From Gemmatimonadota bacterium (GTDB lineage Bacteria > Gemmatimonadota > Gemmatimonadetes > Palauibacterales > KS3-K002), in NCBI GenBank assembly GCA_039586755.1, contig JBDHJU010000029.1, forward strand, positions 3,007 through 67,006: a DNA stretch of 64,000 nt, in the 5' to 3' direction. The notes under the pieces were generated by a model, which did not search any database, was not told the DNA's origin, and was given only the letters and a program-made list of their open reading frames with translations. Below, piece by piece: positions 26,894-40,449 of this stretch; within the stretch, counting starts at the first letter, position 1; every line of letters begins with the position of its first letter. The translations under genes were made by a program, and so were the position numbers.

Positions 26894-27985
26894 ATGACCA
26901 TGCACGAGGTCGTGGATTCGGTCGTACCGACCAAGTATTGGCACAAGCTCGAGGACGGACGGGTGCAGTGCGATCTCTGTCCGCGGTTCTGTCGGCTGCG
27001 GGAGGGTCAGCGCGGCATGTGCTTCGTCCGCATGTGCCAGGACGAGCAGGTCGTCCTCACGACCTACGGCCGCTCCAGCGGCTTCTGCGTCGATCCTATA
27101 GAGAAGAAGCCGCTCAACCACTTCCTGCCGGGGACGCCGATTCTCTCGTTCGGCACCGCCGGTTGCAATCTGGCGTGCAAGTTCTGTCAAAACTGGGACA
27201 TCAGTAAGTCGCGTGAGATGGATAGGCTGGCGGACACGGCGTCGCCCGAGAAGTTGGCCGAGGCGGCGGTGCGGCTCGGGTGCCGTAGCGTCGCCTTCAC
27301 CTACAACGACCCGGTGATCTTCCACGAGTACGCCATCGACGTGGCGCAGGCCTGTCGCGAGCGCGGTGTCAGAACCGTCGCCGTGACGGCGGGCTACGTG
27401 TGCGCCGAGCCGCGCCAAGAGTTCTATCGCTACATGGATGCCGCCAACGTCGACCTCAAGGCCTTCACCGACGACTTCTACTACAAGCTCGCCAAGGGTC
27501 ATCTGGAGCCCGTGCTCGAGACGCTCGTCTTCCTCAAGCACGAAACCGACGTCTGGTTCGAGCTGACGACCCTGCTCATCCCCGGCAACAACGACTCCGA
27601 CGGCGAACTGGACGAGTTGACGCGCTGGGTGGTGGAGCAGCTCGGGCCCGATGTCCCGATGCACTTCACCGCCTTCCACCCCGACTGGAAGATGACCGAC
27701 GTGCCGCCGACGCCACCTGCCACCCTGTCGCGGGCGCGCGAGATAGCGCTTCGCAACGGAGTCCGCTACGCCTACACCGGCAACGTCCACGACCTCGATG
27801 GCGGCAGCACGATCTGCCACAACTGTGGCCACACATTGGTCGCCCGCGATTGGTACATCCTGCAGACTTGGCAGCTGACCGACGACGGCCGCTGCACGAA
27901 GTGCGGCGAGCCGTGCGCCGGTGTGTTCGATGGGCCGCCGGGCGATTGGGGTGCCCGGCGACTGCCTGTGCGGATAGGGCCTTAG
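26894..27985 (+). CDS. amrS: AmmeMemoRadiSam system radical SAM enzyme
   Basis: MHEVVDSVVPTKYWHKLEDGRVQCDLCPRFCRL...VDPIEKKPLNHFLPGTPILSFGTAGCNLACKFCQNWDISKS. It has the CxxxCxxC radical-SAM cluster, an N-terminal Cys pair and the C-terminal Cys pattern CHNCGH...CTKCG typical of AmrS. Confidence 0.9.
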   Translation: MTMHEVVDSVVPTKYWHKLEDGRVQCDLCPRFCRLREGQRGMCFVRMCQDEQVVLTTYGRSSGFCVDPIEKKPLNHFLPGTPILSFGTAGCNLACKFCQNWDISKSREMDRLADTASPEKLAEAAVRLGCRSVAFTYNDPVIFHEYAIDVAQACRERGVRTVAVTAGYVCAEPRQEFYRYMDAANVDLKAFTDDFYYKLAKGHLEPVLETLVFLKHETDVWFELTTLLIPGNNDSDGELDELTRWVVEQLGPDVPMHFTAFHPDWKMTDVPPTPPATLSRAREIALRNGVRYAYTGNVHDLDGGSTICHNCGHTLVARDWYILQTWQLTDDGRCTKCGEPCAGVFDGPPGDWGARRLPVRIGP

Positions 27986-30048
27986 TGTCCTTACCCTCCG
28001 TCGCACTCGCTCTGCTGGCCTCGGTCGCCTCGGCCCAGGAGCCCGACTCGTCCTTCGTGCTGCAGGCGGTGAGAGCGGCCGCGCCGCCGACCATCGATGG
28101 GGTCATCGGGGAAGGCGAGTGGGCCGGCGCAGCGATAGCCGAGAACTTCATCCAATTCGAGCCGCGCGTCGGCGAGCCGTCGGTGGTCTTCTCGCAGGCA
28201 CTCGTGATGTACGATTCGACTGCGCTCTACGTCGCCTTCCGCCTCCGCGACTCCGAGCCGCCTACCGCCCAACTCACGCGCCGCGACGCCGACCTGCTCG
28301 AAGACGATGCCGTCGTCATACTGCTCGATACGTACAACGACAACCGCTCCGGCTTCCTCTTCGTGACCAATGCTCTGGGCACTCAGGGCGACGGACAGAT
28401 CAGGGACGACGGTCGGACGGTCGATGCCACGTGGGACGCGACCTGGAGCTCCGCTGCGCAGCTGACCAGAACGGGTTGGACGGCCGAGTTCGCCATCCCG
28501 TTTGGCTCTATGAGCTATAAGGCCGGCGACGAGGTCACCTGGGGCATCAACTTCGGTCGCAGCCGCAGGCGAACGTTGGAGCTCAGCTACTGGGCGGGCC
28601 CACTCGACAACCAGTGGCGGATGTCGCAGGCGGGGTCCATTGTCGGGCTCCAGGTAGCTCCGCCGGCACGCCGTTACCGCCTCATCCCGTACGGCCTCTC
28701 ACGCATCGAGCAGGGCGGAGGCGAGCTCGATTACAGGGCCGACTGGCAGGCCGGCCTCGACGTGCGCTACGCCATCACGCCCGAGATGGCGGCCTTCCTC
28801 ACCGTGAATCCCGACTTCGCCATCATCGAGGCCGACCAGGAAAGGGTGAATCTGACACGCTTCGAGTTGGCACTCGACGAGAAGCGGCCCTTCTTCCTGG
28901 AGAGCGCCCAGCAGTTTCGGCAGCGGATCCGCACCTTCTACACCCGGCGGATCTCCGACGTCAGGGTCGGTGGCCAGGTCCTGGGGAAACAGGGCCCCTG
29001 GAACCTGACAGGCATCGCGACCTGGTCCGAGGTCGATACCGGCCCCCCGTTGCCGGGGGCGCCCGACGTTGAGCAGCCGAGAGCGGCCTACTCGATCGCC
29101 CGAGCGCAGCGCGATGTGTTGGGCTCATCCAATGTGGCGCTGATGATCGCCAACCGTACGCTGGAAGGAGAGAGCCAGGGGTCGGCGAGCAGCGACGCTA
29201 CTTTGTTCTTCACCAGGACACTGGGCATGACGGCGCAGGTCGCCCAGAGCTGGGGCCCGTCCAACACCGGGACCTGGGCCTACTTCATACGGCCGGCCTA
29301 CGATTCGCCGACCAGCCACTTCCACGTCCGCTACACGCACCTCGGCCATAGCTTCGCCGACAACGTCAACGTCATTGGGTTCATTCGCGACGACGACAGG
29401 CGCGAGATCGACTCGGCGCTCGACCACACGTTCTGGATCCGCCGTGGCGCGTTCGAGCGCATCGCTTACGACTCGAACTACAACATCTACTGGAGCCAGC
29501 AGGGCACTCTGCGTAGCTGGCAGATCGACCAGGAGCTCGAGGTCGAGCTGCGCAGCCGCTGGTCGATGGAGCTCGAATACCAGGAGGAGTTCAAGCGCTT
29601 CGAGAAGGACTTCCGCAATCGCCAGCTCGGCGTAGAGATCGGCTACAACACCCGCCAGTTCCAGTCGGCCCGCGCCGGAGTCCTCGCCGGTAGGAACTTC
29701 GATGCCGACTTCCAATTGTGGACCGCCAGCGCCGCAGTCAAACCGACCGCCCAGCTCTCACTCGAGTACGAGCTGGAGCGCCTGGTGCTGGACCCGGATC
29801 CGGAAAACGAGAGTACCTGGATCCATGTCGTTCGCGCCGACCAGTTCTTCACCCCGGATCTCTTCTTGAAGGTCTTCTTTCAAACCAATTCCGCGATCAG
29901 TAAAGAGAACATCCAGGCCGTCTTCGTCTACCGTTATCGCCCGCCCTTCGGTACCATCCAGCTGGCCTACCAGCGCGGCACGGGGGAGTTCGGCGAACGC
30001 TCCCAGCAGGGGAACACCCTCTTCTTGAAGGTGACCGCCGTTTTCTGA
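27985..30048 (+). CDS. DUF5916/carbohydrate-binding-family-9-like outer-membrane protein (CBM9-like N-domain + beta-barrel)
   Basis: Signal peptide ...SLPSVALALLASVASAQEP, then IDGVIGEGEWAGAAIAENFIQFEPRVGEPS...ALYVAFRL (CBM9-like). A long beta-rich region ends ...LFLKVTAVF (terminal Phe). The start is uncertain: either GTG 27985, which overlaps the amrS stop, or TTG 27946. Confidence 0.65.
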   Translation: MSLPSVALALLASVASAQEPDSSFVLQAVRAAAPPTIDGVIGEGEWAGAAIAENFIQFEPRVGEPSVVFSQALVMYDSTALYVAFRLRDSEPPTAQLTRRDADLLEDDAVVILLDTYNDNRSGFLFVTNALGTQGDGQIRDDGRTVDATWDATWSSAAQLTRTGWTAEFAIPFGSMSYKAGDEVTWGINFGRSRRRTLELSYWAGPLDNQWRMSQAGSIVGLQVAPPARRYRLIPYGLSRIEQGGGELDYRADWQAGLDVRYAITPEMAAFLTVNPDFAIIEADQERVNLTRFELALDEKRPFFLESAQQFRQRIRTFYTRRISDVRVGGQVLGKQGPWNLTGIATWSEVDTGPPLPGAPDVEQPRAAYSIARAQRDVLGSSNVALMIANRTLEGESQGSASSDATLFFTRTLGMTAQVAQSWGPSNTGTWAYFIRPAYDSPTSHFHVRYTHLGHSFADNVNVIGFIRDDDRREIDSALDHTFWIRRGAFERIAYDSNYNIYWSQQGTLRSWQIDQELEVELRSRWSMELEYQEEFKRFEKDFRNRQLGVEIGYNTRQFQSARAGVLAGRNFDADFQLWTASAAVKPTAQLSLEYELERLVLDPDPENESTWIHVVRADQFFTPDLFLKVFFQTNSAISKENIQAVFVYRYRPPFGTIQLAYQRGTGEFGERSQQGNTLFLKVTAVF

Positions 30049-30282: not shown

Positions 30283-31740
30283 ATGTCGGATGCTATCGCT
30301 GGACTGAAGCCTGAACCCGTGTGGAGATACTTCGCCGAGATCAGCCAGATCCCGCGCGAGTCGAAGAACGAGAAGCAGATCTCGAACTACGTCATGGGGG
30401 TCGCCAAGCGGCTCGGCCTCGAGGCGAAGCAGGACGGTGCGCTGAACGTCGTGGTCAAGAAACCAGCCACCGCCGGCCGCGAGGGCACGCCCAGCGTCTG
30501 CCTGCAGGGTCACCTCGACATGGTCTGCGAGAAGAACAAGGGCGTCGAGCACGATTTCGAGAAGGACCCGATCCGGCTCGTTCGCCAGGGCAATCTTCTT
30601 ATGGCTGACGGAACGACGCTGGGCGCCGACAACGGCATCGCCGTCGCCACGAACCTGGCGATCATGGAGGATCGCTCGCTGGAGCACGGGCCACTCGAGT
30701 TCCTGTTCACCGTCGATGAGGAGACCGGGCTCACCGGCGCCGGCTTCCTCAAGCCCGGGTTCGTCGAGAGTAGGATCCTCCTCAACCTCGATTCCGAGGA
30801 AGAAGGCGAGATCTTCGTGGGCTGCTCCGGTGGCCGCGATACCTCCGGTACCTGGCGCGTGAACTTCATGCGGGCGCCGGGCGGCTCGGTCCCCATGCGA
30901 CTCAAGGTGCAGGGCCTGGTCGGCGGTCACTCGGGCCTCGAGATCGACAAGGGGCGCGGCAACTCGATCAAGACGCTTGCTCGAGTGCTCTATGAGTTGC
31001 ACGAGATCGGCGCGCGCCTCGCCCACATCGAAGGCGGAAACAAGCGGAACGCGATTCCCCGCGAGGCCGAGGCCCTGGTCTTCGTGCCCAAGGACAAAGT
31101 CCGCAAGGCACAGGCGATCGCCAAGAAGTTGGACGAGACGATAGGTGCCGAGCTGGCCAGCGTCGACCCCGACCTGTCGATCACGCTGGAGCGCGAGAGC
31201 GGCGATGTCGAGCGCCAGGTTATGAAGAAGGACCAGCAGGAGGGGATAATCAAAGCGCTCGTCGCGCTGCCCCACGGCGTCACCAAGATGAGCGTTGACA
31301 TTCCGGGACTGGTGGAGACGTCGACCAACGTCGCGGTCCTCAGCACGGCGGGGAGCAAGATCATGCTGGAGACCAGCCAGCGCAGCTCGGTGGCATCCGA
31401 GATCGAGGAGATCGTCCAGACGGTCGCGACGATCCTCGAGCTCAGCGGCGCCAAGGTCGTTCAGGATTCCGGCTACCCCGGTTGGAAGCCGAACCTCGAC
31501 TCGCCGATTCTCAAGATCGCCAAATCGACTTACCAACAGCTCTACGGCAAACAACCCGGCGTCCAGGCCGTACACGCCGGACTCGAGTGCGGCATCATCG
31601 GCGAAAAATATCCGGGCATGGACATGATTTCGTTCGGCCCGACGCTCGAAGGCGTTCATTCGCCCGACGAAAAAATGCACATCGACACGGTGGAGAAATT
31701 CTGGGACTACCTGCTGGCGATCTTGAAAAACGTGAGCTGA
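30283..31740 (+). CDS. pepD: Aminoacyl-histidine (Xaa-His) dipeptidase, M20C family
   Basis: MSDAIAGLKPEPVWRYFAEISQIPRESKNEKQISNYV...CLQGHLDMVCEKN...DNGIAVA...HSGLEI is a full-length PepD-like sequence. Confidence 0.9.
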   Translation: MSDAIAGLKPEPVWRYFAEISQIPRESKNEKQISNYVMGVAKRLGLEAKQDGALNVVVKKPATAGREGTPSVCLQGHLDMVCEKNKGVEHDFEKDPIRLVRQGNLLMADGTTLGADNGIAVATNLAIMEDRSLEHGPLEFLFTVDEETGLTGAGFLKPGFVESRILLNLDSEEEGEIFVGCSGGRDTSGTWRVNFMRAPGGSVPMRLKVQGLVGGHSGLEIDKGRGNSIKTLARVLYELHEIGARLAHIEGGNKRNAIPREAEALVFVPKDKVRKAQAIAKKLDETIGAELASVDPDLSITLERESGDVERQVMKKDQQEGIIKALVALPHGVTKMSVDIPGLVETSTNVAVLSTAGSKIMLETSQRSSVASEIEEIVQTVATILELSGAKVVQDSGYPGWKPNLDSPILKIAKSTYQQLYGKQPGVQAVHAGLECGIIGEKYPGMDMISFGPTLEGVHSPDEKMHIDTVEKFWDYLLAILKNVS

Positions 31741-31825
31741 ACGCCAAACCTTGCGCAGGCGGCTCGTTAGACTGCAAATTATACCGACTCCAGCGCCGGC
31801 CGCATTACACGAGGGAGGGGCGAAG

Positions 31826-32029
31826 ATGGCGAAGACGACTTTCGTGGTGAAAAGCCACAAGGACGGCTGGCACGTGCAGAAGGAAGGCAAGAGGTCGCCG
31901 GAGAGCTTCCACAAGAAGAAAGCCATCGCCGTCAAGAAGGGAAGATCGCTGGCGAAGAAATCGAAAGGCTACCTGAAGATCAAGGCCAAGACGGGCAAGA
32001 TCCAGGCGAAGCGCTACTACGGCGAATAA
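31826..32029 (+). CDS. DUF2188 domain small protein
   Basis: MAKTTFVVKSHKDGWHVQKEGKRSPESFHKKKAIAVKKGRSLAKKSKGYLKIKAKTGKIQAKRYYGE has the characteristic DUF2188 pattern. A GAGGGAGGGG RBS lies 6 nt upstream. Confidence 0.75.
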   Translation: MAKTTFVVKSHKDGWHVQKEGKRSPESFHKKKAIAVKKGRSLAKKSKGYLKIKAKTGKIQAKRYYGE

Positions 32030-32208
32030 CTTCGTAGCGTGCGGGATGATCGCCTTCTGTCATCCCTCAATCACGAAGACGCCAATCCAAGTCGATCAAC
32101 CGGGTGGGCACCAGTGTCTCTGGTGCTCACCTTTTCTTTCGCGCATCTTGTTGCCGTAGCCCAGGTCTCCTACATAGTCGAAACTCGTTTTGCAGGCCGG
32201 TCCTCACG

Positions 32209-34566
32209 GTGAACGATAGGCGCAGCAAGCTGGGCCTCGCGCTGTCCGGCGGCGGTTTCCGGGCATCCTTCTTCCATCTCGGCGTCCTGCGGCGCCTGGC
32301 CGAGCTCGACGTTCTCAGGCACGTGGAGGTCCTCTCCACCGTATCCGGCGGTTCCATACTGGCGGCCCTCTACATCCTCGTCCTAAAAAAGTACATCGAT
32401 CGCAAAGCCGACCTAGACCGCGACGACTACGTCGAGATCGTCAAGGAGGTCGAGGACGATTTCCTCGCGGGTGTTCGCAAGAACCTGCGCACGCGGCTGC
32501 TGTTGAACCCGTTCGCGACACTCTGGATCATCGTGTCGAACTCGACCCTGGCTCAGCGGATGAGCCGTCTGTACCAACGTCATCTCTACAGGCGGATCGT
32601 CGACGAGCTTCGCCACAAAGGCCAGCTGAAGCGCGCGGGGAAGGCGGGCGAGGTCGCCCTCAAAGATGCTCGTTTCCTGCCAGGAGGCGAAGAAGTCGTC
32701 GGTGGGGTGGAGGAGTACAACCGCACGCACTCGACCAAAATCCCGCAGCTCGTCCTCAACGCCACGACCCTCAATTCCGGGCGCGATTGGCGGTTCACCA
32801 GTGTCGAGGTCGGCGATTCGGTGCTCGGGTTCCTGCGTTACGACGAGATCGACGACCTCGTCGACTACCGGCGCGAGCTGGCAGAGAGAGCGCTCGAGGA
32901 CCTCATACGGAGCGTTGAGACACCGCCGCAGCGCTTCGGGTCCGAGGTGGTGGTGGCGGCCATCTTCCGGCTGCTGTGGCAGGAAGCCGACGCCGAGGCT
33001 AGGGCCGATTTCGGGAAGCACGCCCGAGAGGTACTGACGGGTGCAGGCATCGACCTCGGCCCTTGGCCGGTTCTCGACGGGATCTGTAAAGAGGGGTTCC
33101 CCCTTCGCCGCTTCATGTCCTGCGAGCTGGGTGAATTGCGGGCGGCCAAGCAGGAAGCGTGGTATGTGTGCCGCGGCCCGCGTGACGGTGTGCCGGCGGG
33201 ATTACCGCGCGGCCAGCGCGCCCGTCGCTTCTGGTTGGCGATACGCGAAATCGGAGCGGATGTCTGGGGCGAGTGCCGACGGCTAGTCGGCGAGTCGCCC
33301 GAGCGGCTAGAAGCTCTGATGGCGTTCGTTATCGATCTCTACCAGCTGCGCACGAGTCTTCTCATCGGTTCGAAAGCGAAGCGTGACTTCGAGAAGATCA
33401 CGCTTGCCGATGCGGTGGCGGCCTCGGCCTGCTTCCCGCCCGTGTTTCCGCCCTACACGATCCTCGGCCTCTACGATGATACACACGTTGCCACGCTGCG
33501 CCTCACCGACGGCGGCGTCTTCGACAATCAAGGCATGTCAGCGCTCTTCGAGGAAGAGTGCACGCACATCATCGCCAGCGATGCCGGCGGCCTGATGCAG
33601 GTCGAGCGGCGCGTGACGGCGGGTCGCTTCGGGATGATGGGACGGATCTTCTCGATCCTGATGGACAACGTTCGTAACCTCCAGATTCGTAGGTTGAGGG
33701 AGGAGCGGCGCGTCACGGCGGGCCTCAGCGGAGTCGACGGCCAGGATCCTGCCCTGGACGATCTCAAGCAGCGATACGGGCTGGATGGCGCCGCGTTCTT
33801 CCATATGACCACACCTCCCGAGGACGGCGATCCGGAGGGCCTGCCGCCTCACCCGGAAGCGAAAGCAATCGCCTGCATCCGCACCGACCTCGACGCCTTC
33901 GGCGACGGCGAGATAGCTGCACTTTTCTACCAGGGCTATTCGCTCGCCGATCGCTTCGTGCGCCGGTACCTCGGCCGCTCGCCGTTCGCTTCGTCCGACT
34001 GGAAACCGGCCGACCGCGCACCGCTGCCGCGGATGAGGCAAGAGGATTGCCCGGCCCGGAGATTCGCCGAGGGAGGTGAACGGAGGGTCATCGAGGCGGG
34101 CGCACTACGTTTCTTCAGGTCGCTGAAATTGAGGGCCTGGGAAGCGTGGCTGTTCACCCTCGCCTTGCTTGCCGGTGCGATCGTCGCTGGCTGGGAGGTT
34201 AGCCTATCGCTCGCCGGTCTTTTGGCGGCGCTCGGCGACGCGCTGGAAAGAATATGGCCTTTTGCGGTGGACCGACCGGTGCCGGTGGTCGTATGGGTTC
34301 TGGGTATAGCGCTGCTCATCGCCTGGTACGTCCTCTGGCCGAAGCTGATGCGGAAGCTTGGAAAGGTGCGCCCGTTCGTTACCATCGTTAAGTGGATACG
34401 CGCCATCGCCGGAAACTTCCTGTGGGTCTTCGGGCTGCTTCCGGTCTGGGTGTCCCTCGCTGGCGCGTTGATCGCCACGACAAGTCACGTCGTATATAAT
34501 GGTGCATTCCTACGCGTCACAGGTTACTTCGATCGTTGCCTCGAGTCCTGGTTGGGAGAGGGCTGA
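32209..34566 (+). CDS. Patatin-like phospholipase with large C-terminal extension ending in a multi-TM domain
   Basis: Oxyanion hole LALSGGGFRASFFHLGVL. Nucleophile region VLSTVSGGSILAAL, a GxSxG variant. Catalytic Asp motif LRLTDGGVFDNQG. C-terminal hydrophobic helices are WLFTLALLAGAIVAGW, VPVVVWVLGIALLIAWYVLW and NFLWVFGLLPVWVSLAGALIA. The start is uncertain between GTG 32209 and GTG 32104. Confidence 0.8.
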   Translation: MNDRRSKLGLALSGGGFRASFFHLGVLRRLAELDVLRHVEVLSTVSGGSILAALYILVLKKYIDRKADLDRDDYVEIVKEVEDDFLAGVRKNLRTRLLLNPFATLWIIVSNSTLAQRMSRLYQRHLYRRIVDELRHKGQLKRAGKAGEVALKDARFLPGGEEVVGGVEEYNRTHSTKIPQLVLNATTLNSGRDWRFTSVEVGDSVLGFLRYDEIDDLVDYRRELAERALEDLIRSVETPPQRFGSEVVVAAIFRLLWQEADAEARADFGKHAREVLTGAGIDLGPWPVLDGICKEGFPLRRFMSCELGELRAAKQEAWYVCRGPRDGVPAGLPRGQRARRFWLAIREIGADVWGECRRLVGESPERLEALMAFVIDLYQLRTSLLIGSKAKRDFEKITLADAVAASACFPPVFPPYTILGLYDDTHVATLRLTDGGVFDNQGMSALFEEECTHIIASDAGGLMQVERRVTAGRFGMMGRIFSILMDNVRNLQIRRLREERRVTAGLSGVDGQDPALDDLKQRYGLDGAAFFHMTTPPEDGDPEGLPPHPEAKAIACIRTDLDAFGDGEIAALFYQGYSLADRFVRRYLGRSPFASSDWKPADRAPLPRMRQEDCPARRFAEGGERRVIEAGALRFFRSLKLRAWEAWLFTLALLAGAIVAGWEVSLSLAGLLAALGDALERIWPFAVDRPVPVVVWVLGIALLIAWYVLWPKLMRKLGKVRPFVTIVKWIRAIAGNFLWVFGLLPVWVSLAGALIATTSHVVYNGAFLRVTGYFDRCLESWLGEG

Positions 34567-34567
34567 T

Positions 34568-35032
34568 ATGAGACATAGCGGGAGAGATACGGGGAAGGCG
34601 CTGCGTCGAGCGCTGCAGCTGACCGTCCTGGCCGCGACATTGGCCGGGCTAGGCTGCCAGATCAAGCTGGTCGCCGACTACGATGAGATCACCGACCGCT
34701 CGATCACTGCACTGCAGCGCGAGTTCGAGCTCTTCTTCATCGACGTAGAGCGCAATCTCCACACGCCCGATGCGGTTCATGACAACTACATCGGGTTCTA
34801 CGACGAGGTGCGGGCCGAATTGAGCGTCATAAGGGTGCGCGCCGCCGCCCGGCCGAAGAACGAGATCACAGTCGAGCAACTCGACCTCGTGGCGCAGAAC
34901 GTCGACAATCTCGAGGAGCTGCACAAATTAGGGTTCGACAGTCCGGAGGAGCTGGAACCGCTACGCGCCGCGTTTCAGCAGAGCTTCCAGGCGATACTGA
35001 CGCTTGAGCTGGCCAAGAAGCGGGGCCAGTAG
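34568..35032 (+). CDS. Hypothetical secreted (possibly lipo-)protein, translationally coupled to patatin gene
   Basis: ATG lies 1 nt after the patatin TGA. Signal peptide MRHSGRDTGKALRRALQLTVLAATLAGLGCQIKL. The mature region is DYDEITDRSITALQREFELFFIDVERNLHTPDAVHDNYIGFYDEV.... No family was recognised. Confidence 0.55.
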   Translation: MRHSGRDTGKALRRALQLTVLAATLAGLGCQIKLVADYDEITDRSITALQREFELFFIDVERNLHTPDAVHDNYIGFYDEVRAELSVIRVRAAARPKNEITVEQLDLVAQNVDNLEELHKLGFDSPEELEPLRAAFQQSFQAILTLELAKKRGQ

Positions 35033-35040
35033 GAGGGTAT

Positions 35041-35370
35041 ATGGCTATCAGGGTGCCGAGTCTGGCGAAACAGATGTTGGACGCATCCCGTGCGGTCCTC
35101 GAGGACAGCTGGCCCGAGATCAAGGACTACGCGAAGGCCGAGTTCAAAAAGACCGCGGAGAGCATAGCGATGATCGTGCGGCTCCACGCGGCGGGTAAGT
35201 TGACAAAGAAAAAAGCCCGCTTGCACCTGGAGATCCAGAAGAACGCATCCCGCACCGTCCTGCTGACGATCGAAGGCATGGGCATCATAGCGGTCGAGCG
35301 AGCGATCAACGCCGCGCTGGGTGCGGTAAGGGATACTGTAAACACGGCCGTCGGCTTCAGGCTCATCTGA
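35041..35370 (+). CDS. Hypothetical small cytosolic protein (109 aa)
   Basis: AGGAGGGTAT-ATG RBS, 8 nt after the upstream stop. Product MAIRVPSLAKQMLDASRAVLEDSWPEIKDYAKAEFKKTAESIAMIVRLHAAGKLTKKKARLHLEIQKNA.... Confidence 0.55.
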   Translation: MAIRVPSLAKQMLDASRAVLEDSWPEIKDYAKAEFKKTAESIAMIVRLHAAGKLTKKKARLHLEIQKNASRTVLLTIEGMGIIAVERAINAALGAVRDTVNTAVGFRLI

Positions 35371-35471
35371 GTATACCGCGACCGTCCAACGAAGCCCTCA
35401 GTTCTGCCTGCAAGTCGAGGAGCGTCCTGCTCGCAGAGAAGTCGACGGTCAAAGAAGAGGGAGATCAGGAA

Positions 35472-35834
35472 ATGGACACAGCAGTCGTCGTCATTCAGAT
35501 CATAGTCGCCTTGGGTATTCTCAATGTCTGGATACTGCGGTATGGAAAGCCCACGAGTTGGCGAGGTGGCGATGCTAAGAACATGAAGGAAGAGTTCGAG
35601 GTATATGGCCTCCCGGGTTGGTTCACGAATTTAGTCGGTTTTCTGAAGTTGCTCTTAGCCGCACTATTGATCGCGGGCCTTTGGGTCCCGGCCTTGACGA
35701 GACCCGCAGCAGTTGGATTGGCTGTCCTGATGCTCGGTGCAGTATCGATGCATGTCAAAGTCAAAGACCCTCTGAAGAAGTCTTTGCCCGCTCTAACCAT
35801 GCTCGTGCTTTCTGTGATCGTAGCAGTCATGTAA
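35472..35834 (+). CDS. DoxX-family small membrane protein
   Basis: 120 aa with 3-4 TM helices. ILNVWILRYGKPTSWRGGDAKNMKEEFEVYGLPGWFTNLVGFLKLLLAALLIAG fits the DoxX pattern. GC is about 52%, much lower than the genome. Confidence 0.65.
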   Translation: MDTAVVVIQIIVALGILNVWILRYGKPTSWRGGDAKNMKEEFEVYGLPGWFTNLVGFLKLLLAALLIAGLWVPALTRPAAVGLAVLMLGAVSMHVKVKDPLKKSLPALTMLVLSVIVAVM

Positions 35835-35903
35835 GAGCGAAGAGACAGGGTGGGCGGTTCAGGCCGCCGCCCCCGGTCGGCCTGAAGAATCTCCCGGACG
35901 ATA

Positions 35904-38171
35904 CTATGCCGATTGTGCCGTCTCGAGATCGAATTCAGGTGGGCCAATCGTCGCGATCCCCAGATACCCATCGACTGTCACGATCTCGCCGTCGGTGATA
36001 GACAAGATCGCGTCACTCACGCCGTTGACACATGGAATCCCAAGCTCTCTCGCGATAATTGCGCCGTGTATCAACATGCCGCCGCGACGTTCAACGATGG
36101 CGGCGGCGAGTGGTACGATGTGCGACATGGTTGGCTGGATAGCGTCGCAGATCAGTACCTCACCGGCAGAAAAGCGGTTGAAGTCATCTGTCGATCGCAC
36201 CACGCGTGCCCGCGCCGTGGCAAGGCCGGGGGCCGCCGGTTGTCCGATGATCTGCCGCGGTGTCTCGCCTTCGCTTCCAGACAACGCCTTTCGCGCTGCT
36301 TCGCCGGGCTCAGGTAGGAGGACCCGTCCGCCAGCGGCGTCGCGAAGTGCTGCACTCAGCAGTGGTGCCGCTTCGACACTGACGCGGGCGCCGGGTTCGA
36401 GGCGCCCCGAACCCTCGAGTCGTTGCGCAGCGGTATTCGCAGCACGGAGCAGTTGTTTCTCGACGCGGCCGAGCAACACATTGTCGTCATCGCGGAGTCT
36501 CCAGCTCAGACGAGCTATCGCTATGACAGATGTTGCCTCTTCCTGCCGCTCGGGCCCGACGGCATCAAGCAGGCGTTTCTCGTAGTCGGCCGGAGTCGCC
36601 GTGTCCGTCGTTGTGGCTCCAACCGCAGGGGCCGTCCTGGAGCCGGCCATTTCGAGTACGGTGTGCAATACGATATCGGGACGTTTGTCGAGCTGTTCTC
36701 CATCGTACGCCACATCCATGTATCTTTGGCAGACGCGGTCCAATTTATCAACGAACTCGGGGCCGCCGTCTACTTGGGCTGCCGCCTCCCGAACAGAGTG
36801 CCAGGCTTCGCTCGAGAACGATGGGCCGGATGTCTCTATTTTCCGCAGGACGGCGTGAAGCGCGGGATGATTCTCCAAGTAATCAGCGAGTTTGCCGAAC
36901 GCGGCGTTTCTTTCGGCTGCGATCATCGGCTGATGCTTGAGAATGCCAACGAACTCATAGGGGTCGTCCGGCTTGACCGCGTCGTTGTAGTACGTTCCCA
37001 GTTGCCGGACCCCGTGCGCGAACGGGATGAACTCGTCCCAATATTTCGTCTTCCATCCAGTATGAATCGCGGCGCGTGCACTTATTGCATCGGCTAGCGC
37101 ATCATCCGTGAGATCCTCGATCGGCTCACTGGCCAGGCGGCGGCCTTCCGCCTCGAGCTCGGGAATCAGGTCCTCCGTCACCCGTTTGCAGAGCGCCTCT
37201 AGCTTTGACATGCCCGGGCGTAGCGACAGGTACCACTCGCGCTGATCGCCCTCATCGCGGGATGCTGTGGTTGTGACGGGTCGTGCCTGGAGCACGGTGA
37301 AATCGGCGCCGCGCCCCGTCCATTCGATGTCCGGCGGCCAACCAAGCGTCGTCTCTATCCTGTTGAGGGTTCGGTGTATCAAGCCGACATCTTCGTCAGC
37401 AAGCAGGGGCTCCTCCGTCCGCCCTGTCCGGATACCCGGATGCCACTCGATGATTTCGCCACTCGAACGACGGATCAGCCAGCGATCGGGGTCGACGGCG
37501 CCGTCGACCAGGTCTCGACAGAGCCCGGGCACCGCTTCGATGAGTTGTCGGTCCTCGGTAAGATCCCTTGGATCTCTCCCGAAACCGACGCCTGAGCGGT
37601 CCATTGCAACGAGCCGTTGAACGACCACCGCCATCGCGCTCCGCGTGACATCGAGGCCGAGCTCCTTACGGTAGAGCAGCGCTGCGTCGGACCATAGCGA
37701 CGCCCACACCACGCGAACCGCATCGAGCAGCGCCTTCTCGCCCATCACACCGACTACAGACTCGTGAAGCCCCGCGTATGACCGTGCTGCGGAATCCTCA
37801 CCGACCGCCGAAGAGCGCACGGCGAGAGATTGTCCCTCGAAACCATGGAGCGCATCGCTGATCGCTTGCTCAACGTCGCGGGGAACCGGTGTCCGTAAGA
37901 AGGCCGTTCTGATTCTCAGTGCGGCATCCCAGATCTCCTCCCAGCGCATAGACGACATGGACTTCCGCCCGACCTCCATGTCTATCCGCTTTTTGAGACC
38001 GCCGTCTTCGAGAAATCGGTGGTATGCCCGGGTGGTAATACAAAAGCCCTGCGGGACCCGATAGCCGGAGGCGATGAGTTCCGAGAGTTTCACCGCCTTG
38101 CCGCCGATCCCTCCGTCGCCGATCGCTGCCGCTTCCGGGAGAGGTACGACTAACGGGAGGGTGGCACCCAT
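35904..38171 (-). CDS. PEP-utilizing enzyme family phosphotransferase (PpsA N-terminal ATP-grasp/PPDK_N + mobile His domain; rifampin-phosphotransferase/PEP-synthase-like)
   Basis: N-terminus MGATLPLVVPLPEAAAIGDGGIGGKAVKLSELIASGYRVPQGFCITTRAY is PPDK_N. The C-terminus ...AIQPTMSHIVPLAAAIVERRGGMLIHGAIIARELGIPCVNGV is the PEP-utilizers phospho-His swivel domain. No C-terminal PEP/pyruvate TIM-barrel domain is present. Confidence 0.8.
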   Translation of the reverse strand: MGATLPLVVPLPEAAAIGDGGIGGKAVKLSELIASGYRVPQGFCITTRAYHRFLEDGGLKKRIDMEVGRKSMSSMRWEEIWDAALRIRTAFLRTPVPRDVEQAISDALHGFEGQSLAVRSSAVGEDSAARSYAGLHESVVGVMGEKALLDAVRVVWASLWSDAALLYRKELGLDVTRSAMAVVVQRLVAMDRSGVGFGRDPRDLTEDRQLIEAVPGLCRDLVDGAVDPDRWLIRRSSGEIIEWHPGIRTGRTEEPLLADEDVGLIHRTLNRIETTLGWPPDIEWTGRGADFTVLQARPVTTTASRDEGDQREWYLSLRPGMSKLEALCKRVTEDLIPELEAEGRRLASEPIEDLTDDALADAISARAAIHTGWKTKYWDEFIPFAHGVRQLGTYYNDAVKPDDPYEFVGILKHQPMIAAERNAAFGKLADYLENHPALHAVLRKIETSGPSFSSEAWHSVREAAAQVDGGPEFVDKLDRVCQRYMDVAYDGEQLDKRPDIVLHTVLEMAGSRTAPAVGATTTDTATPADYEKRLLDAVGPERQEEATSVIAIARLSWRLRDDDNVLLGRVEKQLLRAANTAAQRLEGSGRLEPGARVSVEAAPLLSAALRDAAGGRVLLPEPGEAARKALSGSEGETPRQIIGQPAAPGLATARARVVRSTDDFNRFSAGEVLICDAIQPTMSHIVPLAAAIVERRGGMLIHGAIIARELGIPCVNGVSDAILSITDGEIVTVDGYLGIATIGPPEFDLETAQSA

Positions 38172-38665
38172 TGGCCGACCTCCTGAAAGCGGGTCACGTG
38201 GAAAAAGCGAACGATGTCGATTCGGAACAGCGCACAGGATGGCGCTCTGACGAACGATTCGAGCTGTGAATGTCGATTGACGAGAAGTCGTGAGTACTGG
38301 TCGAACTCGGGACCGCGCGGGATCTCCGTCGTCTGACCGGTCGCGGTCAACGCCTCAACCTTCATCATGTCATTGGGATGGTCGGGGCGGTTGTCCACGA
38401 CGAGGGCGACATGGTCGCATTCAGACAACAAACGGTATTTTCGGGTAGCGATTGGCGTGGTGAACACAGCGACAGAGAGGTTGTCCGAAAAGGCGAACGC
38501 AACCATCGAACCGTACGGTTGTCCCTGTCCCTGTGTGCACAAGACACCATAGGGTTGCGTGGTAACGAGGCATCGGATCCGCTCTTCGAGTCCTGGATTG
38601 GCTTCCGTGTTACCTGGCTCCACCGGACTATCCTCGGGTAAAGGGTTCGTGTCTTCTATTGACAT
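38150..38665 (-). CDS. Pyridoxamine 5'-phosphate oxidase-like FMN-binding split-barrel protein
   Basis: LVTTQPYGVLCTQGQGQPYGSMVAFAFSDNLSVAVFTTPIATRKYRLLSECDHVALVVDNR fits the PNPOx-like fold. It overlaps the downstream gene start by about 22 nt. Confidence 0.65.
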   Translation of the reverse strand: MSIEDTNPLPEDSPVEPGNTEANPGLEERIRCLVTTQPYGVLCTQGQGQPYGSMVAFAFSDNLSVAVFTTPIATRKYRLLSECDHVALVVDNRPDHPNDMMKVEALTATGQTTEIPRGPEFDQYSRLLVNRHSQLESFVRAPSCALFRIDIVRFFHVTRFQEVGQWVPPSR

Positions 38666-38706
38666 CTCAAGTCCCACTCGTCTCGGCGTGAGGGTCTACT
38701 GGTGCT

Positions 38707-40449
38707 CTATCTTCGCCGGGACTGCAGATCCTCCAGCGCCTCGAGTGCCGCCTTGACGATGTCGCCCACCTTAACTATGTGCCTTTCTTCTTGATCGCGC
38801 CGCTTGAGCTCGACCCCGCCTGCCTGCAACGATCGGCGACCCAGCGTCAACCTCACCGGCAACCCGATGAGATCGGCGTCGTTGAACTTCACGCCGCCGC
38901 TGGCATCGCGGTCGTCGTAGAGCACCTCGATCCCTCCTTCGTGTAAGGACGTGTAAAGATCATCACCCCGTCGCGCGATCTCTTCTTCGCCGCCTGATAA
39001 TACGACGAGGTGGACCTGGTACGGTGCCACCTCGGCGGGCCAGCACAGGCCGTGCTCGTCGTGGTGCGTCTCGGCTACACAGGCCAGCAGGCGGCCGATT
39101 CCCATCCCGTGGGAACCGATGGCCGGCGTCCGCTGTGTTCCGTCCTGGTCCTGGAACGTGATGCCCAGAGTCTCGCCGTACGCCGGGCTGAAGCGGTGGA
39201 GGCTGCCGATCTCCAGGCTGGCGGCCAGGCGCAGCGGCGCGCCGCACCCGGGGCAGGGAGCACCCGAAAAAGCGGCGGCGATGTCCGTCACGACGTCGGC
39301 GGCGTAGTCACGCTCGAAGTTCACGTTGCTGAGGTGGTAGCCCTCCTGGTTGGCGCCCGACACCAGGTTGGCGGAGCCGGCGACCAGGTCATCGACGACG
39401 ACGATGAGGTCGTCCGACTCGAGGCCGACCGGCGAGGCGAAGCCCGGCACCGCCCCGACGGCGCGGATCGCCCCGGCCTCCGCCGGGGACATGCGGCGCG
39501 CCGCCACGGCGGCGGCGAGCTTGCTCTCGCTCACCTCCATGTCACCGCGAACCAGCGCCATCACAACTACATCACGCTCGCTGTCCTCCTCCCCTTCGTC
39601 GGCCACGGCGGCTGAAAAGAAGACGACCTTCGCCGTGCGCTCGGTGGGGACGCCCAGGTAGTTCGCCAACGAAGCGATGGTGTCGGTCCCGGGAGTGGCG
39701 ACCTTTTCCAATGGTTCAGCTGCTTCAGGTGTGGGCTCGGGCTTCGCGAAGCGTGCCGTGCGCAGGTTCGCCGCGTAGTCGCACCCATCGCAGACCGCCA
39801 GACTGTCGTCGCCGAAGCCGCTCAGAAGATAGAACTCGTCCTCGATCTCATCCTGACGCTCCGATCTCGCGACCAGGATCTCCGACAGCCCGACCCGCCG
39901 GAAGATCCGCTCGAACGCCCCGCGGACGCTCTCGCAGCGCTCCTCCAGGCCCGCCCGGTCACGATCGAAGCTGTAACAGTCCATCAGGTCGAACTCACGG
40001 GCCCGGAGCAGGCCGCGCCCCGGACGCGGCTCGTCGCGGAACGTGGGTCGTATCTGGTATAGGAGGGCCGGAAGCTGCCTATAGGATGTGATGTCGCTCC
40101 GGGCCAGTTCGGCGGCGACCCCCTCGTGCGACGTCCCCAGCAGCAGACTCCTGCCGCCACGGTCGCTGAATCGCACCAACTCTTCGCCGTGGATCCTGCC
40201 GGCCTCGCGCCACAGCCTTGCCGGCTGCACGAGCGGCATGGCGACTTCCTGAGCGCCGATCCCCTCCATCTCCTGGCGCACGATCGCCTCGATCTTTGCG
40301 GCCGTCCGTAGCCCCAGCGGGAGGTAGCTGAAGATCCCCGGCGCCACTCCGCGTAGGTACGAAGCCCTTAGGAGCAGCCCGTGGCCCTCCGATTCGGCCT
40401 CCGCAGGCGTCGTCCTCAGCGTTTCCCCGAAGAGCCGCGACATACGCAT
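38707..40449 (-). CDS. proS: Proline--tRNA ligase
   Basis: MRMSRLFGETLRTTPAEAESEGHGLLLRASYLRGVAPGIFSYLPLGLR...FRDEPRPGRGLLRAREFDLMDCYSF has the class II motifs 1-3 and a C-terminal anticodon-binding domain. Confidence 0.9.
   Translation of the reverse strand: MRMSRLFGETLRTTPAEAESEGHGLLLRASYLRGVAPGIFSYLPLGLRTAAKIEAIVRQEMEGIGAQEVAMPLVQPARLWREAGRIHGEELVRFSDRGGRSLLLGTSHEGVAAELARSDITSYRQLPALLYQIRPTFRDEPRPGRGLLRAREFDLMDCYSFDRDRAGLEERCESVRGAFERIFRRVGLSEILVARSERQDEIEDEFYLLSGFGDDSLAVCDGCDYAANLRTARFAKPEPTPEAAEPLEKVATPGTDTIASLANYLGVPTERTAKVVFFSAAVADEGEEDSERDVVVMALVRGDMEVSESKLAAAVAARRMSPAEAGAIRAVGAVPGFASPVGLESDDLIVVVDDLVAGSANLVSGANQEGYHLSNVNFERDYAADVVTDIAAAFSGAPCPGCGAPLRLAASLEIGSLHRFSPAYGETLGITFQDQDGTQRTPAIGSHGMGIGRLLACVAETHHDEHGLCWPAEVAPYQVHLVVLSGGEEEIARRGDDLYTSLHEGGIEVLYDDRDASGGVKFNDADLIGLPVRLTLGRRSLQAGGVELKRRDQEERHIVKVGDIVKAALEALEDLQSRRR

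What the first reader, a model, noticed from the sequence alone, without database searches (positions are those of the whole stretch)
31750..35900. Lower-GC island: patatin-like phospholipase with multi-TM C-terminus, tightly coupled to a secreted/lipoprotein-like protein and a small cytosolic protein; flanked by DUF2188 and DoxX
The patatin gene (32209-34566) has the catalytic motifs intact: GGGFR, a VSGGS nucleophile region and DGG. Unusually, the protein ends in about 4 TM helices.

Two further genes follow with tight spacing:
- After a 1-nt gap (TGA-n-ATG), a gene for a signal-peptide or lipoprotein-like 154-aa protein.
- After 8 nt with a strong RBS, a 109-aa cytosolic protein.

The phospholipase-effector-plus-periplasmic-lipoprotein architecture resembles lipase effector/immunity (Tle/Tli-like) pairs. 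It also resembles patatin-containing antiphage modules such as the CBASS CapE type, but no T6SS, cyclase or other known partner is nearby.

The whole 31.8-35.9 kb segment has visibly lower GC than the flanks. DoxX is about 52% GC. This suggests an acquired accessory islet whose function is not explained by the neighbours.
Basis: partly seen in the sequence, partly recalled or inferred. Interest (0 to 1): 0.7.

Follow-up and report, generated by a model that had tools for sequence, protein, structure and literature searches.

The report
Membrane patatin lipase with unknown partner pair
A membrane-anchored phospholipase in a Gemmatimonadota genome is co-transcribed with an unannotated two-gene pair (a lipoprotein and a small helical protein) that in many other bacteria sits right behind unrelated membrane-damaging enzymes, which suggests an undescribed conflict or defence module, though its function is untested.

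Summary
The three genes are real: a patatin (32209-34566, Ser46/Asp434 dyad, three C-terminal TM helices), a lipoprotein g2 (34568-35032) and a helical g3 (35041-35370), spaced by 1 nt and 8 nt.

The "low-GC island" is only partly right. Patatin, g2 and g3 have native GC3 (0.78-0.81). The foreign-looking block is DoxX/PPDK-like/PNPOx (35.4-38.7 kb, GC3 0.60-0.68), which relatives lack.

Tle/Tli and CBASS readings are not supported. There is no cyclase or secretion feature. The patatin is self-anchored, and it persists intact without g2-g3 in one close relative and in all 17 distant full-length homologues examined.

The new result concerns g2-g3:
- It is an always-paired module with no match in any library searched, found across phyla (g2 precedes g3 in 82 of 85 informative loci).
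- Its upstream neighbour is a patatin in 5 of 43 independent loci (four architectures), SLATT_2 in 2 and DUF900 in 2, against 0 of 52 downstream (p = 5e-4).
- TIR, SIR2 and HD-CE genes lie nearby in some loci.

Best reading (about 0.45): a conflict or defence-type cassette in which the pair gates a membrane phospholipase. Main rival (about 0.28): envelope or lipid homeostasis.

The parts
31826..32029 (+). DUF2188 small basic protein (67 aa). It is conserved directly upstream of the patatin in this clade, in 1-2 copies, and is probably a separate transcription unit.
   Evidence: Pfam PF09954 E=1e-12. PADLOC candidate PDC-S16 E=3e-14. phrog_3220 E=5e-14. Present upstream of the patatin in L001, L002, L173, L174 and L175.
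32102..32132 (+). Terminator-like hairpin (13-bp stem, 8 GC pairs, followed by TTTCTTT) between DUF2188 and the patatin.
   Evidence: It lies inside the alternative upstream GTG extension (32104), which supports 32209 as the true patatin start, as do the homologue N-termini.
32209..34566 (+). Patatin-like phospholipase, 785 aa. The catalytic domain is split by an insert of about 270 aa. A conserved C-terminal extension carries an RTDLDxF motif and is followed by three TM helices.
   Evidence: More than 4000 homologues were found, many aligning over 97-98% of the length at 35-45% identity in several phyla.
32248..32262 (+). Oxyanion-hole motif GGGFR (aa 14-18).
   Evidence: G14 G15 G16 F17 R18 are invariant in alignment A1.
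32335..32355 (+). Nucleophile elbow STVSGGS (Ser46). This is a T-x-S-x-G variant of the G-x-S-x-G motif.
   Evidence: S43, V45, S46, G47 and G48 are invariant.
33502..33522 (+). Catalytic Asp motif LTDGGVF (Asp434).
   Evidence: D434 G435 G436 V437 are invariant.
34141..34479 (+). C-terminal membrane anchor with three hydrophobic helices at about aa 648-666, 691-709 and 737-755. Basic residues precede TM1 and fill the TM2-TM3 loop, so the catalytic domain is inferred to be cytoplasmic.
   Evidence: Hydropathy scan and sequence. The topology is inferred from the positive-inside rule.
34568..35032 (+). g2: a 154-aa lipoprotein. A signal helix is followed by the lipobox Cys30 (34655-34657) and a four-helix bundle.
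   Evidence: Cys30 is invariant in 33 and in 45 homologues. The AF2 model has pLDDT 90, with helices 40-62, 71-93, 99-121 and 126-153. No Pfam, PADLOC, NCBIfam, PHROG or PDB match was found.
35041..35370 (+). g3: a 109-aa helical-bundle protein with no signal peptide. It has a strongly conserved C-terminal half (QKNASRTVLLTIEGLG...AVE.AINAAL).
   Evidence: Alignment A2. AF2 pLDDT 94.6. A profile search found 904 clusters among 1.84 billion representatives; the 150 listed are all stand-alone proteins of 80-139 aa, mostly 109-111. No family or PDB match was found.
35371..38706 (.). A 3.3-kb block, not part of the triad, carrying DoxX_2 (35472-35834, +), a PPDK_N/PEP-utilizer protein (35904-38171, -) and PNPOx (38150-38677, -). 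It looks like a window-specific insertion between g3 and proS.
   Evidence: GC3 is 0.60-0.68 against 0.78-0.85 in the flanks. The block is absent in L175, L174, L173 and L002, where proS follows g3 or the patatin; L173 has only a methyltransferase in between.

Best explanation
Window 32209-35370 is a three-gene operon.

The components:
- The first gene encodes an inner-membrane-anchored patatin-like phospholipase. It has a cytoplasmic catalytic domain with a Ser46/Asp434 dyad and three C-terminal TM helices. This large family is usually solitary.
- It is translationally coupled to a two-gene module that is autonomous elsewhere. g2 is a lipoprotein whose four-helix bundle faces the periplasm. 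g3 is a 109-aa cytoplasmic helical bundle.
- g2 and g3 always travel together. They are patchily distributed across phyla. They repeatedly sit immediately downstream, on the same strand, of unrelated enzymes that attack membranes or the envelope: four patatin architectures elsewhere (five including this window's), DUF900 and another alpha/beta hydrolase, SLATT 2TM proteins and lysozymes.

Proposed mechanism: this is a conflict-type cassette (phage defence or abortive infection, or a related self-directed stress response). The g2-g3 pair would set the activity of the phospholipase. g2 would read the state of the envelope from the periplasmic side, possibly through the short periplasmic loop and tail of the patatin TM domain. 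g3 would act on the cytoplasmic side. Once released, the patatin would hydrolyse the cell's own membrane phospholipids.

Shown: gene structure, catalytic motifs, lipobox, predicted folds, obligate pairing, conservation of the triad in the clade, and the statistical association with lipase and SLATT genes.
Inferred: topology, any physical interaction, the direction of regulation, and the defence role.
For: Structure and coupling:
- The genes are spaced 1 nt and 8 nt apart, each with an RBS. In L175 the patatin and g2 overlap by 11 nt, and in L173 they are 1 nt apart.
- The triad is retained in L001, L003, L173, L174 and L175 (patatin 72-88% identical), although the genes further downstream differ.

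The g2-g3 pair:
- g2 lies directly upstream of g3 in 82 of 95 loci. Eleven of the 13 misses lie at a contig edge; the two clear exceptions are L130 and L141, and L124 is counted with the 82 only through a 12-nt overlap with g3, with no g2 detected.
- Upstream neighbours in 43 non-redundant loci outside this clade include Patatin in 5 (335, 339, 410, 597 and 812 aa), SLATT_2 in 2 and DUF900 in 2. There are also GH25, a GH19-like protein and two transglutaminases.
- L082 has a sub-threshold lipase-like alpha/beta hydrolase two genes upstream.
- PADLOC matches in the same upstream set are CBASS-type phospholipase effector in 2, TIR-like ThsB in 1 and IetS/subtilase in 1.
- The downstream control has 0 of 52 with Patatin, SLATT or DUF900. 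Fisher's exact test gives p=0.017 for patatin and p=5e-4 for the three families together. The binomial probability against a 0.1-0.5% background is 1e-9 to 3e-6.
- Effector-linked pairs are scattered over the g3 tree.
- Conflict genes lie nearby in several loci: TIR/SEFIR and PDDEXK_4 inside a prophage (L090), HD-CE and SIR2_2 (L091), TIR_2 in 2 and LSDAT_prok among the downstream genes.

DUF2188:
- The gene upstream of the patatin matches PADLOC candidate PDC-S16. A preprint notes that DUF2188 has been predicted to take part in defence (bioRxiv 10.1101/2022.04.27.489752).
Against: - Neither part needs the other. About 20 of the 43 pairs have housekeeping-looking, opposite-strand or distant upstream neighbours, such as pyrophosphatase, Dak, UbiD and methyltransferases.
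- All 17 distant full-length patatin homologues, and the close relative L002, lack g2-g3.
- g2 and g3 match no known or candidate defence model, no phage family, no phage genome and no viral contig.
- In this window the triad has native codon composition. It sits in conserved synteny between a peptidase gene and proS, not in a recognisable defence island.
- g2 (outside the membrane) and g3 (cytoplasm) cannot touch each other directly, so the proposed relay is speculative.
- The fold searches returned only generic helical bundles.
- The upstream genes were called with a simple longest-ORF rule, so a few neighbour assignments may be wrong.
Confidence: 0.45

Rival explanations
1. Envelope or lipid homeostasis. 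The membrane-anchored patatin is a housekeeping phospholipase or lysophospholipase that remodels or repairs inner-membrane lipids. g2-g3 is an accessory envelope-stress pair that tunes it. No conflict or defence role is involved.
For: - The patatin-TM family is very large, conserved over its full length across phyla, and solitary.
- In this clade the triad has native GC3 and stable synteny beside housekeeping genes.
- L002 keeps an intact patatin without g2-g3, so the enzyme is tolerated unregulated.
- The g2 fold resembles periplasmic four-helix sensor domains, although only generically.
Against: - g2-g3 is rare and patchy: 55 and 111 clusters at 90% identity, and 904 at 50% among 1.84 billion. 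A core envelope function would not be expected to show this distribution.
- The pair is linked to SLATT, TIR-like and CapV-like patatins, and it occurs in a prophage and near SIR2 and HD-CE genes. These contexts point to conflict systems.
Confidence: 0.28
2. Fortuitous adjacency. The patatin and the g2-g3 pair are two independent units that happen to be neighbours in this lineage. The pair simply tends to land in variable regions, which are also rich in effector genes.
For: - Both units occur alone far more often than together.
- The pair's neighbourhoods are very heterogeneous, and no other neighbour is shared.
- Tightly spaced downstream genes are unrelated to each other: HAD in 2, an exonuclease and a beta-lactamase.
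Against: - The 1-nt spacing or overlap with the patatin stop is kept over 72-100% patatin identity.
- The association is directional. The effectors lie upstream on the same strand within 200 nt, never downstream.
- It recurs with four different patatin architectures and in separate branches of the g3 tree.
Confidence: 0.15
3. Lipase toxin with immunity (Tle/Tli-like). The patatin is an antibacterial effector. The g2 lipoprotein, with g3, protects the producer.
For: - g2 is a genuine lipoprotein encoded immediately after a phospholipase.
- One g2-g3 pair lies two genes after a 5490-aa RHS protein (L081).
- Lysozyme-type enzymes also precede the pair in two loci.
Against: - The patatin has no signal peptide and no secretion or T6SS-associated domain, and no T6SS gene is adjacent.
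- Its three TM helices keep it in the producer's own membrane.
- The patatin is intact without g2-g3 in L002 and in 17 distant loci.
- Most of the pair's partners (short patatins, DUF900, SLATT) lack signal peptides and look like intracellular or self-membrane effectors.
- A cytoplasmic second 'immunity' protein has no counterpart among Tli proteins (own knowledge).
Confidence: 0.05
4. CBASS-like or other nucleotide-signalling system, with the patatin as the signal-activated effector.
For: Patatins are the commonest CBASS effectors (PMC12480259, seen). Two of the short patatins beside other g2-g3 pairs match PADLOC CBASS phospholipase-effector models.
Against: - There is no cyclase or other signal-generating enzyme in the operon, and g2 and g3 have no enzyme-family match.
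- The window patatin matches the effector model only weakly, over its first 70 residues.
- NCBIfam DS2_1 scores 14 bits against a cut-off of 400.
- The called genes in L086 and L087, with short patatins, show no cyclase either.
Confidence: 0.02

Closest known systems
Patatin-like phospholipases (Pfam PF01734), for example PlpD of Pseudomonas aeruginosa (PDB 5fqu)
   Same: The Pfam domain scores above the gathering threshold. It has the GGGxR oxyanion hole, a Ser nucleophile and a DGG aspartate. PlpD is the only sequence match in the PDB.
   Different: - The catalytic domain is interrupted by an insert of about 270 residues.
- The nucleophile motif is T-x-S-x-G rather than G-x-S-x-G.
- There is a conserved C-terminal extension with an RTDLDxF motif and three TM helices, instead of PlpD's POTRA and beta-barrel (the PlpD architecture is from my own knowledge).
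- The match to PlpD covers only about 50 residues (E=2.5e-4).
CBASS phospholipase effector CapV/CapE
   Same: Both are patatin enzymes thought to destroy the cell's own membrane. Short CapV-like patatins sit beside g2-g3 in other genomes (L086, L093).
   Different: There is no CD-NTase. The window patatin is 785 aa, membrane-anchored, and not a member of the CapV model families. Its partners are a lipoprotein and a small helical protein.
T6SS lipase effector/immunity pairs (Tle/Tli)
   Same: A phospholipase gene is followed at once by a lipoprotein gene.
   Different: The patatin has no secretion context and anchors itself in the membrane. It tolerates loss of the lipoprotein (L002). There is a second, cytoplasmic partner. 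The pair usually occurs without any lipase.
SLATT/2TM effector-containing conflict systems, described with SMODS/SLOG partners (Pfam PF18183 description)
   Same: The same g2-g3 pair follows SLATT_2 genes in L102 and L137. This fits the effector-swapping pattern typical of such systems.
   Different: There are no SMODS or SLOG genes in those operons (L137 neighbours). The conserved partner is the unannotated g2-g3 pair.
PADLOC candidate PDC-S16 (DUF2188)
   Same: The gene upstream of the patatin matches at E=3e-14.
   Different: PDC-S16 is only a candidate single-gene system. Here DUF2188 is separated from the patatin by a terminator-like hairpin, and it is absent from the distant patatin loci.

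Membership tests
Patatin-like phospholipase (PF01734) | Profile match above the curated threshold. | tested here: met
   75 bits against a 27.7 cut-off, in two stretches because of an internal insert.
Patatin-like phospholipase (PF01734) | Oxyanion hole G-G-x-[KR], Ser nucleophile in G-x-S-x-G, and catalytic Asp in D-G-[AG]. | tested here: met
   GGGFR 14-18, TVSGG with Ser46 (the first Gly is replaced by Thr) and DGG 434-436. All are invariant in 26 homologues.
Patatin-like phospholipase (PF01734) | Acyl-hydrolase or phospholipase A activity. | not testable with these tools
   Needs an enzyme assay with S46A and D434A controls.
Bacterial lipoprotein (g2) | N-terminal signal peptide ending in a lipobox with an invariant Cys. 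| tested here: met
   A hydrophobic helix (aa 7-27) is followed by LAGLGC. Cys30 is invariant in 33 and in 45 homologues, with [GAS]-C at -1/+1 in nearly all.
T6SS Tle/Tli effector-immunity pair | The effector is linked to T6SS genes (vgrG, hcp, PAAR) or carries a delivery domain. | tested here: not met
   The neighbours are an M20 peptidase, DUF2188, DoxX, a PPDK-like gene, PNPOx and proS. The patatin has only the Patatin domain. The rest of the 64-kb window was not screened for T6SS genes.
T6SS Tle/Tli effector-immunity pair | The immunity gene always accompanies the effector, because the effector is toxic without it. | tested here: not met
   L002 (81% identity) has an intact patatin followed directly by proS. 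Seventeen distant full-length homologues lack g2-g3.
T6SS Tle/Tli effector-immunity pair | The immunity protein is periplasmic or a lipoprotein encoded next to the effector. | tested here: met
   g2 is a lipoprotein encoded 1 nt after the patatin.
CBASS | A CD-NTase (cGAS/DncV-like cyclase) in the operon. | tested here: not met
   No gene between 30283 and 38677 has such a domain. g2 and g3 have no family match.
CBASS | The effector belongs to the CapV/CapE phospholipase models. | tested here: not met
   PADLOC PDLC00755 gives E=1.7e-3 and 15.6 bits, over residues 10-80 only. NCBIfam anti-phage phospholipase scores 14 bits against a cut-off of 400.
Any known or candidate defence system in PADLOC-DB v2.0.0 | g2 or g3 matches a system model. 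| tested here: not met
   g2 has none. g3 has only RmrA at E=0.003 and 14.8 bits over 40 residues. Newer DefenseFinder and PADLOC releases could not be run.
Phage lysis cassette (endolysin plus spanins) | Phage or prophage location, with an o-spanin lipoprotein and an i-spanin carrying an N-terminal TM helix. | tested here: not met
   There are no PHROG matches, no phage-genome matches and no viral-contig matches. g3 has no TM helix or signal peptide. Only 2 of 43 pairs follow a lysozyme-type gene.

The most novel reading that the evidence does not exclude
g2-g3 is the conserved core of an undescribed, phylogenetically broad conflict or defence system that recruits interchangeable cell-killing effectors (patatins of several architectures, DUF900 and other lipases, SLATT pores, TIR-like proteins). 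It would have an unusual trans-envelope design: one partner is lipid-anchored outside the cytoplasmic membrane, and the other is a small cytoplasmic helical bundle with a buried hydrophobic hairpin. The Gemmatimonadota patatin-TM operon would be one fixed, vertically inherited instance.
Probability: 0.3. Interest if true: 0.75.

Novelty: new variant of a known kind. Interest (0 to 1): 0.55.

Why it matters
If the pair really controls membrane-destroying effectors, it would add two new protein families and a new sensing layout to bacterial immunity or conflict systems. The layout includes a periplasm-facing lipoprotein, which could report on the envelope, where phages first act. It would also give a first functional handle on a very large family of about 800-aa membrane-anchored patatins (more than 4000 homologues found here) that are annotated only generically. 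If instead the triad is a lipid-homeostasis device, it would still define a regulator pair for bacterial membrane phospholipases. Either way the claim can be tested with a small operon.

Tried and rejected
- **Family and sequence searches for g2 and g3.** Pfam, NCBIfam, PADLOC and PHROGs gave nothing usable. PDB profile searches gave only noise: RsbR at E=0.08 and malonyl-CoA decarboxylase at E=0.8.
- **Fusions.** The g3 profile search against 1.84 billion representatives looked for fusions to known domains. All 150 listed hits are stand-alone proteins of 80-139 aa, mostly 109-111.
- **Shared neighbours.** All-vs-all clustering found no third conserved neighbour of the pair beyond antisense ORF shadows. 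It also found no conserved neighbour of the distant patatin-TM genes.
- **Downstream component.** I looked for a downstream 'fourth gene'. The tightly spaced downstream genes are unrelated: HAD, an exonuclease, a beta-lactamase and unknowns.
- **Phage origin.** There were no hits in INPHARED phages or IMG/VR contigs. Among plasmids only Variovorax megaplasmids matched, annotated as hypothetical.
- **Spanin idea.** I considered that g2 and g3 are spanins, because lysozyme genes precede two pairs. I rejected it because g3 has no TM helix and there is no phage link.
- **Insertion boundaries.** I looked for flanking repeats around the DoxX-PNPOx insertion and found none convincing.
- **Literature.** Searches on patatin, SLATT, DUF900, lipoprotein and HD-CE found no description of this pair.

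Full report
**1. What is in the window**

The best protein matches are to Gemmatimonadota metagenome-assembled genomes. The patatin is 100% identical to a JGI protein and 88% identical to a protein from a Gemmatimonadetes MAG. ORF listing and Pfam give the following gene order:

| Gene | Coordinates | Strand |
|---|---|---|
| M20 peptidase | 30283-31740 | + |
| DUF2188 | 31826-32029 | + |
| patatin | 32209-34566 | + |
| g2 | 34568-35032 | + |
| g3 | 35041-35370 | + |
| DoxX_2 | 35472-35834 | + |
| PPDK_N/PEP-utilizer protein | 35904-38171 | - |
| PNPOx-like | 38150-38677 | - |
| proS | 38707-40485 | - |

- The patatin starts at GTG 32209. This start is supported by the N-termini of its homologues. 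A strong terminator-like hairpin at 32102-32132 also lies inside the longer alternative ORF.
They are invariant in an alignment of 26 homologues from several phyla.
- The Pfam domain is split by an insert of about 270 residues.
- A hydropathy scan gives three strong C-terminal TM helices. Basic residues precede TM1 and fill the TM2-TM3 loop. I therefore infer that the catalytic domain is cytoplasmic, with a short loop and a tail of about 30 aa outside the membrane.
- g2 starts 1 nt after the patatin stop. g3 starts 8 nt after the g2 stop, behind GGAGGG.

**2. The GC claim**

The segment 31750-35900 is 61.1% GC, against 64.1 +/- 1.7% for windows of the same size. That is about 1.7 sd low, and almost all equally low windows overlap this region.

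Third-position GC separates two classes of gene:

| Native-like | GC3 | Outlier | GC3 |
|---|---|---|---|
| DUF2188 | 0.85 | DoxX | 0.60 |
| patatin | 0.78 | PPDK-like | 0.68 |
| g2 | 0.81 | PNPOx | 0.65 |
| g3 | 0.81 | | |
| M20 peptidase (flank) | 0.85 | | |
| proS (flank) | 0.83 | | |

The low overall GC of DUF2188 comes from its Lys-rich composition.

Synteny agrees with the GC3 split:
- In L175 (patatin 88% identical) and L174 (72%), g3 is followed directly by convergent proS.
- In L173 (78%), only a methyltransferase intervenes.
- In L002 (81%), proS follows the patatin itself.

The acquired block is therefore the 3.3 kb from DoxX to PNPOx, not the patatin triad.

**3. The patatin family**

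More than 4000 homologues were found. Many align over 97-98% of the query at 35-45% identity, in Proteobacteria, Nitrospirae, Bacteroidota, Elusimicrobia and other groups. The C-terminal membrane region is conserved in position.

Seventeen distant full-length loci share no neighbouring gene with each other. None of them carries g2, g3 or DUF2188. The family is therefore normally solitary. Its only PDB sequence relative is PlpD, matched over about 50 residues.

**4. The two small genes**

- g2 has 55 clusters and g3 has 111 clusters at 90% identity. A g3 profile finds 904 clusters at 50% identity among 1.84 billion representatives. The 150 listed are all stand-alone proteins of 80-139 aa, mostly 109-111.
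- Neither protein matches Pfam, NCBIfam, PADLOC, PHROGs or PDB sequences.
- g2 has an invariant lipobox cysteine after a signal helix. A confident AF2 model shows a four-helix bundle (pLDDT 90).
- g3 has no signal peptide. It is a compact helical bundle (pLDDT 94.6) with a very conserved and rather hydrophobic C-terminal half.

**5. Comparative genomics of the pair**

I collected 95 g3 loci: from a metagenome scan with the g3 alignment, from contig look-ups, and from the patatin scan.

- g2 lies directly upstream of g3 in 82 of them. Eleven of the 13 misses lie at a contig edge; the two clear exceptions are L130 and L141, and L124 is counted with the 82 only through a 12-nt overlap with g3, with no g2 detected. 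The pair is obligate.
- All-vs-all clustering finds no other widely shared neighbour. Many pairs sit among ordinary genes such as pyrophosphatase, Dak, UbiD and methyltransferases. The pair is therefore autonomous and mobile.
- It is absent from phage genomes and viral contigs. Among plasmids it occurs only on Variovorax megaplasmids, annotated as hypothetical.

**6. A directional association with membrane-damaging enzymes**

Upstream genes in 43 non-redundant loci outside the window's clade include the following:

| Upstream family | Loci | Detail |
|---|---|---|
| Patatin | 5 | 335 aa (L086), 339 aa (L093), 410 aa (L168), 597 aa with three TM helices (L042/L132), 812 aa with TM helices (L157) |
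| SLATT_2 | 2 | L102, L137 |
| DUF900 alpha/beta hydrolase | 2 | L090, L091 |
| GH25 lysozyme | 1 | L136 |
| GH19-like | 1 | L151 |
| Transglutaminase | 2 | L095, L096 |

- All of these genes are on the same strand as the pair, and all but the L095 transglutaminase (about 520 nt upstream) lie within 200 nt of it.
- In Polaromonas a 534-aa protein two genes upstream has sub-threshold matches to lipase and esterase families. In Pseudoalteromonas the pair lies two genes after a 5490-aa RHS protein.
- PADLOC flags two of the upstream proteins as CBASS-type phospholipase effectors, one as TIR-like and one as IetS/subtilase-like.
- As a control I took the downstream neighbours. Among 52 there are no Patatin, SLATT or DUF900 genes. 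They do include TIR_2 in 2, LSDAT_prok and SAD_SRA.
- Fisher's exact test, upstream against downstream, gives p=0.017 for patatin and p=5e-4 for the three families together. Against a generous genomic background of 0.1-0.5% patatin genes, five of 43 has a probability of 1e-9 to 3e-6.
- On an NJ tree of g3, the effector-linked pairs are scattered. The window clade groups with the short-patatin and one DUF900 lineage, and the other effector-linked pairs lie elsewhere. The tree is built on 109 residues, so its resolution is low.
- L090 lies in a prophage next to TIR/SEFIR and PDDEXK_4 genes. L091 lies next to HD-CE and SIR2_2 genes.
- Most partner enzymes lack signal peptides. They therefore look like intracellular or self-membrane effectors rather than secreted toxins.

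**7. Conservation of the triad in this clade**

Patatin-g2-g3 is found with spacings of 1 nt, an 11-nt overlap and 31 nt in L173, L175 and L174. It is also present in L001 and L003.

L002 is the exception. Its patatin is intact, with all motifs, and there is no g2-g3. This argues against an immunity or antitoxin role, because the enzyme is tolerated without the pair.

One or two DUF2188 genes precede the patatin throughout the clade. DUF2188 matches the PADLOC candidate PDC-S16. It has been predicted to take part in defence (Burroughs & Aravind 2020, as cited in bioRxiv 10.1101/2022.04.27.489752).

**8. Interpretation**

- The Tle/Tli reading fails on delivery context, on the self-anchoring TM domain, and on the dispensability of g2-g3.
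- The CBASS reading fails on the absence of a cyclase and on family membership.
- The best-supported reading is a conflict-type cassette. A conserved two-protein module, one partner on each side of the cytoplasmic membrane, would be coupled to exchangeable cell-damaging effectors. Here that effector is a membrane-anchored phospholipase.
- The steps that are shown are gene structure, motifs, pairing, association and clade conservation.
- The steps that are inferred are topology, physical contacts, the direction of control and the biological role.
- The main rival is a lipid or envelope homeostasis role. It is favoured by the native composition, the stable synteny and the huge solitary patatin family.
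- Mere adjacency is made unlikely by the conserved translational coupling and the directional recurrence.

**9. Limits**

- Neighbour genes were called with a longest-ORF heuristic, and only one neighbour on each side was tallied.
- The loci come from pattern-based scans capped at 80 rows, so sampling is incomplete.
- Current DefenseFinder and PADLOC releases, multimer structure prediction and a full census could not be run.
- No experiment bears on function.

Noticed in passing
window 35371-38706: A 3.3-kb block carries DoxX_2, a 755-aa PPDK_N plus PEP-utilizer protein (an architecture like PEP synthase or rifampicin phosphotransferase) and a PNPOx-like protein. Its GC3 is 0.60-0.68 against about 0.8 in the flanks. 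The block is absent between g3 and proS in four relatives, so it is probably a recent insertion. No flanking repeats were found.
   Followed up: partly
window 32030-32208, compared with L175:1820-2050, L174:6734-6964, L001:1945-2151 and L002:4143-4349: Relatives carry a second, diverged DUF2188 paralogue (about 45% identical, 76 aa) between the first DUF2188 and the patatin. The window has only a 180-bp spacer there, containing a strong terminator-like hairpin (32102-32132).
   Followed up: partly
window 31826-32029: The DUF2188 protein matches PADLOC phage-defence candidate PDC-S16 (E=3e-14) and phage family phrog_3220 (E=5e-14). A CBASS-regulation preprint notes that DUF2188 has been predicted to act in defence.
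   Followed up: partly
L090:1-12459: Here the DUF900-g2-g3 cassette lies inside a prophage-like region. Nearby are a terminase GpA, lysozyme, holin and Rz-like lysis genes, an antirepressor, and a SEFIR/TIR_2 protein and a PDDEXK_4 nuclease.
   Followed up: no
L091:4970-12465 (the same region as L092 and L113): DUF900-g2-g3 is followed on the same strand by genes of 117 and 303 aa with no family match, a 728-aa HD-CE protein, a 232-aa protein and a SIR2_2 protein. This looks like a multi-system conflict island, or possibly a larger operon.
   Followed up: no
L081:1-6330 (Pseudoalteromonas byunsanensis): A g2-g3 pair lies after a 5490-aa RHS/YD-repeat protein and a 204-aa two-TM protein. This is the position where RHS immunity genes and orphan modules usually sit.
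   Followed up: no
L086:4884-7869 and L093:3379-6349: Short CapV-like patatins (335-339 aa) with no cyclase among the called neighbouring genes of L086 are followed by g2-g3 and then, in both loci, by a luciferase-like monooxygenase.
   Followed up: no
L003:6001-7710 (CP070812.1): The patatin in this complete MAG chromosome matches only from residue 217 and is annotated as partial. It may be a truncation or an assembly problem. g2 and g3 downstream are intact.
   Followed up: no
window 35127-35366 (- strand) and the equivalent in 61 loci: An antisense ORF opposite g3 recurs in most loci (cluster 2). I take it to be an ORF shadow of the conserved g3 coding sequence, not a gene.
   Followed up: partly
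window 27400-30048 (+): A large ORF of up to 882 aa, probably shorter with an internal start and signal peptide, lies upstream of the M20 peptidase. I did not examine it.
   Followed up: no
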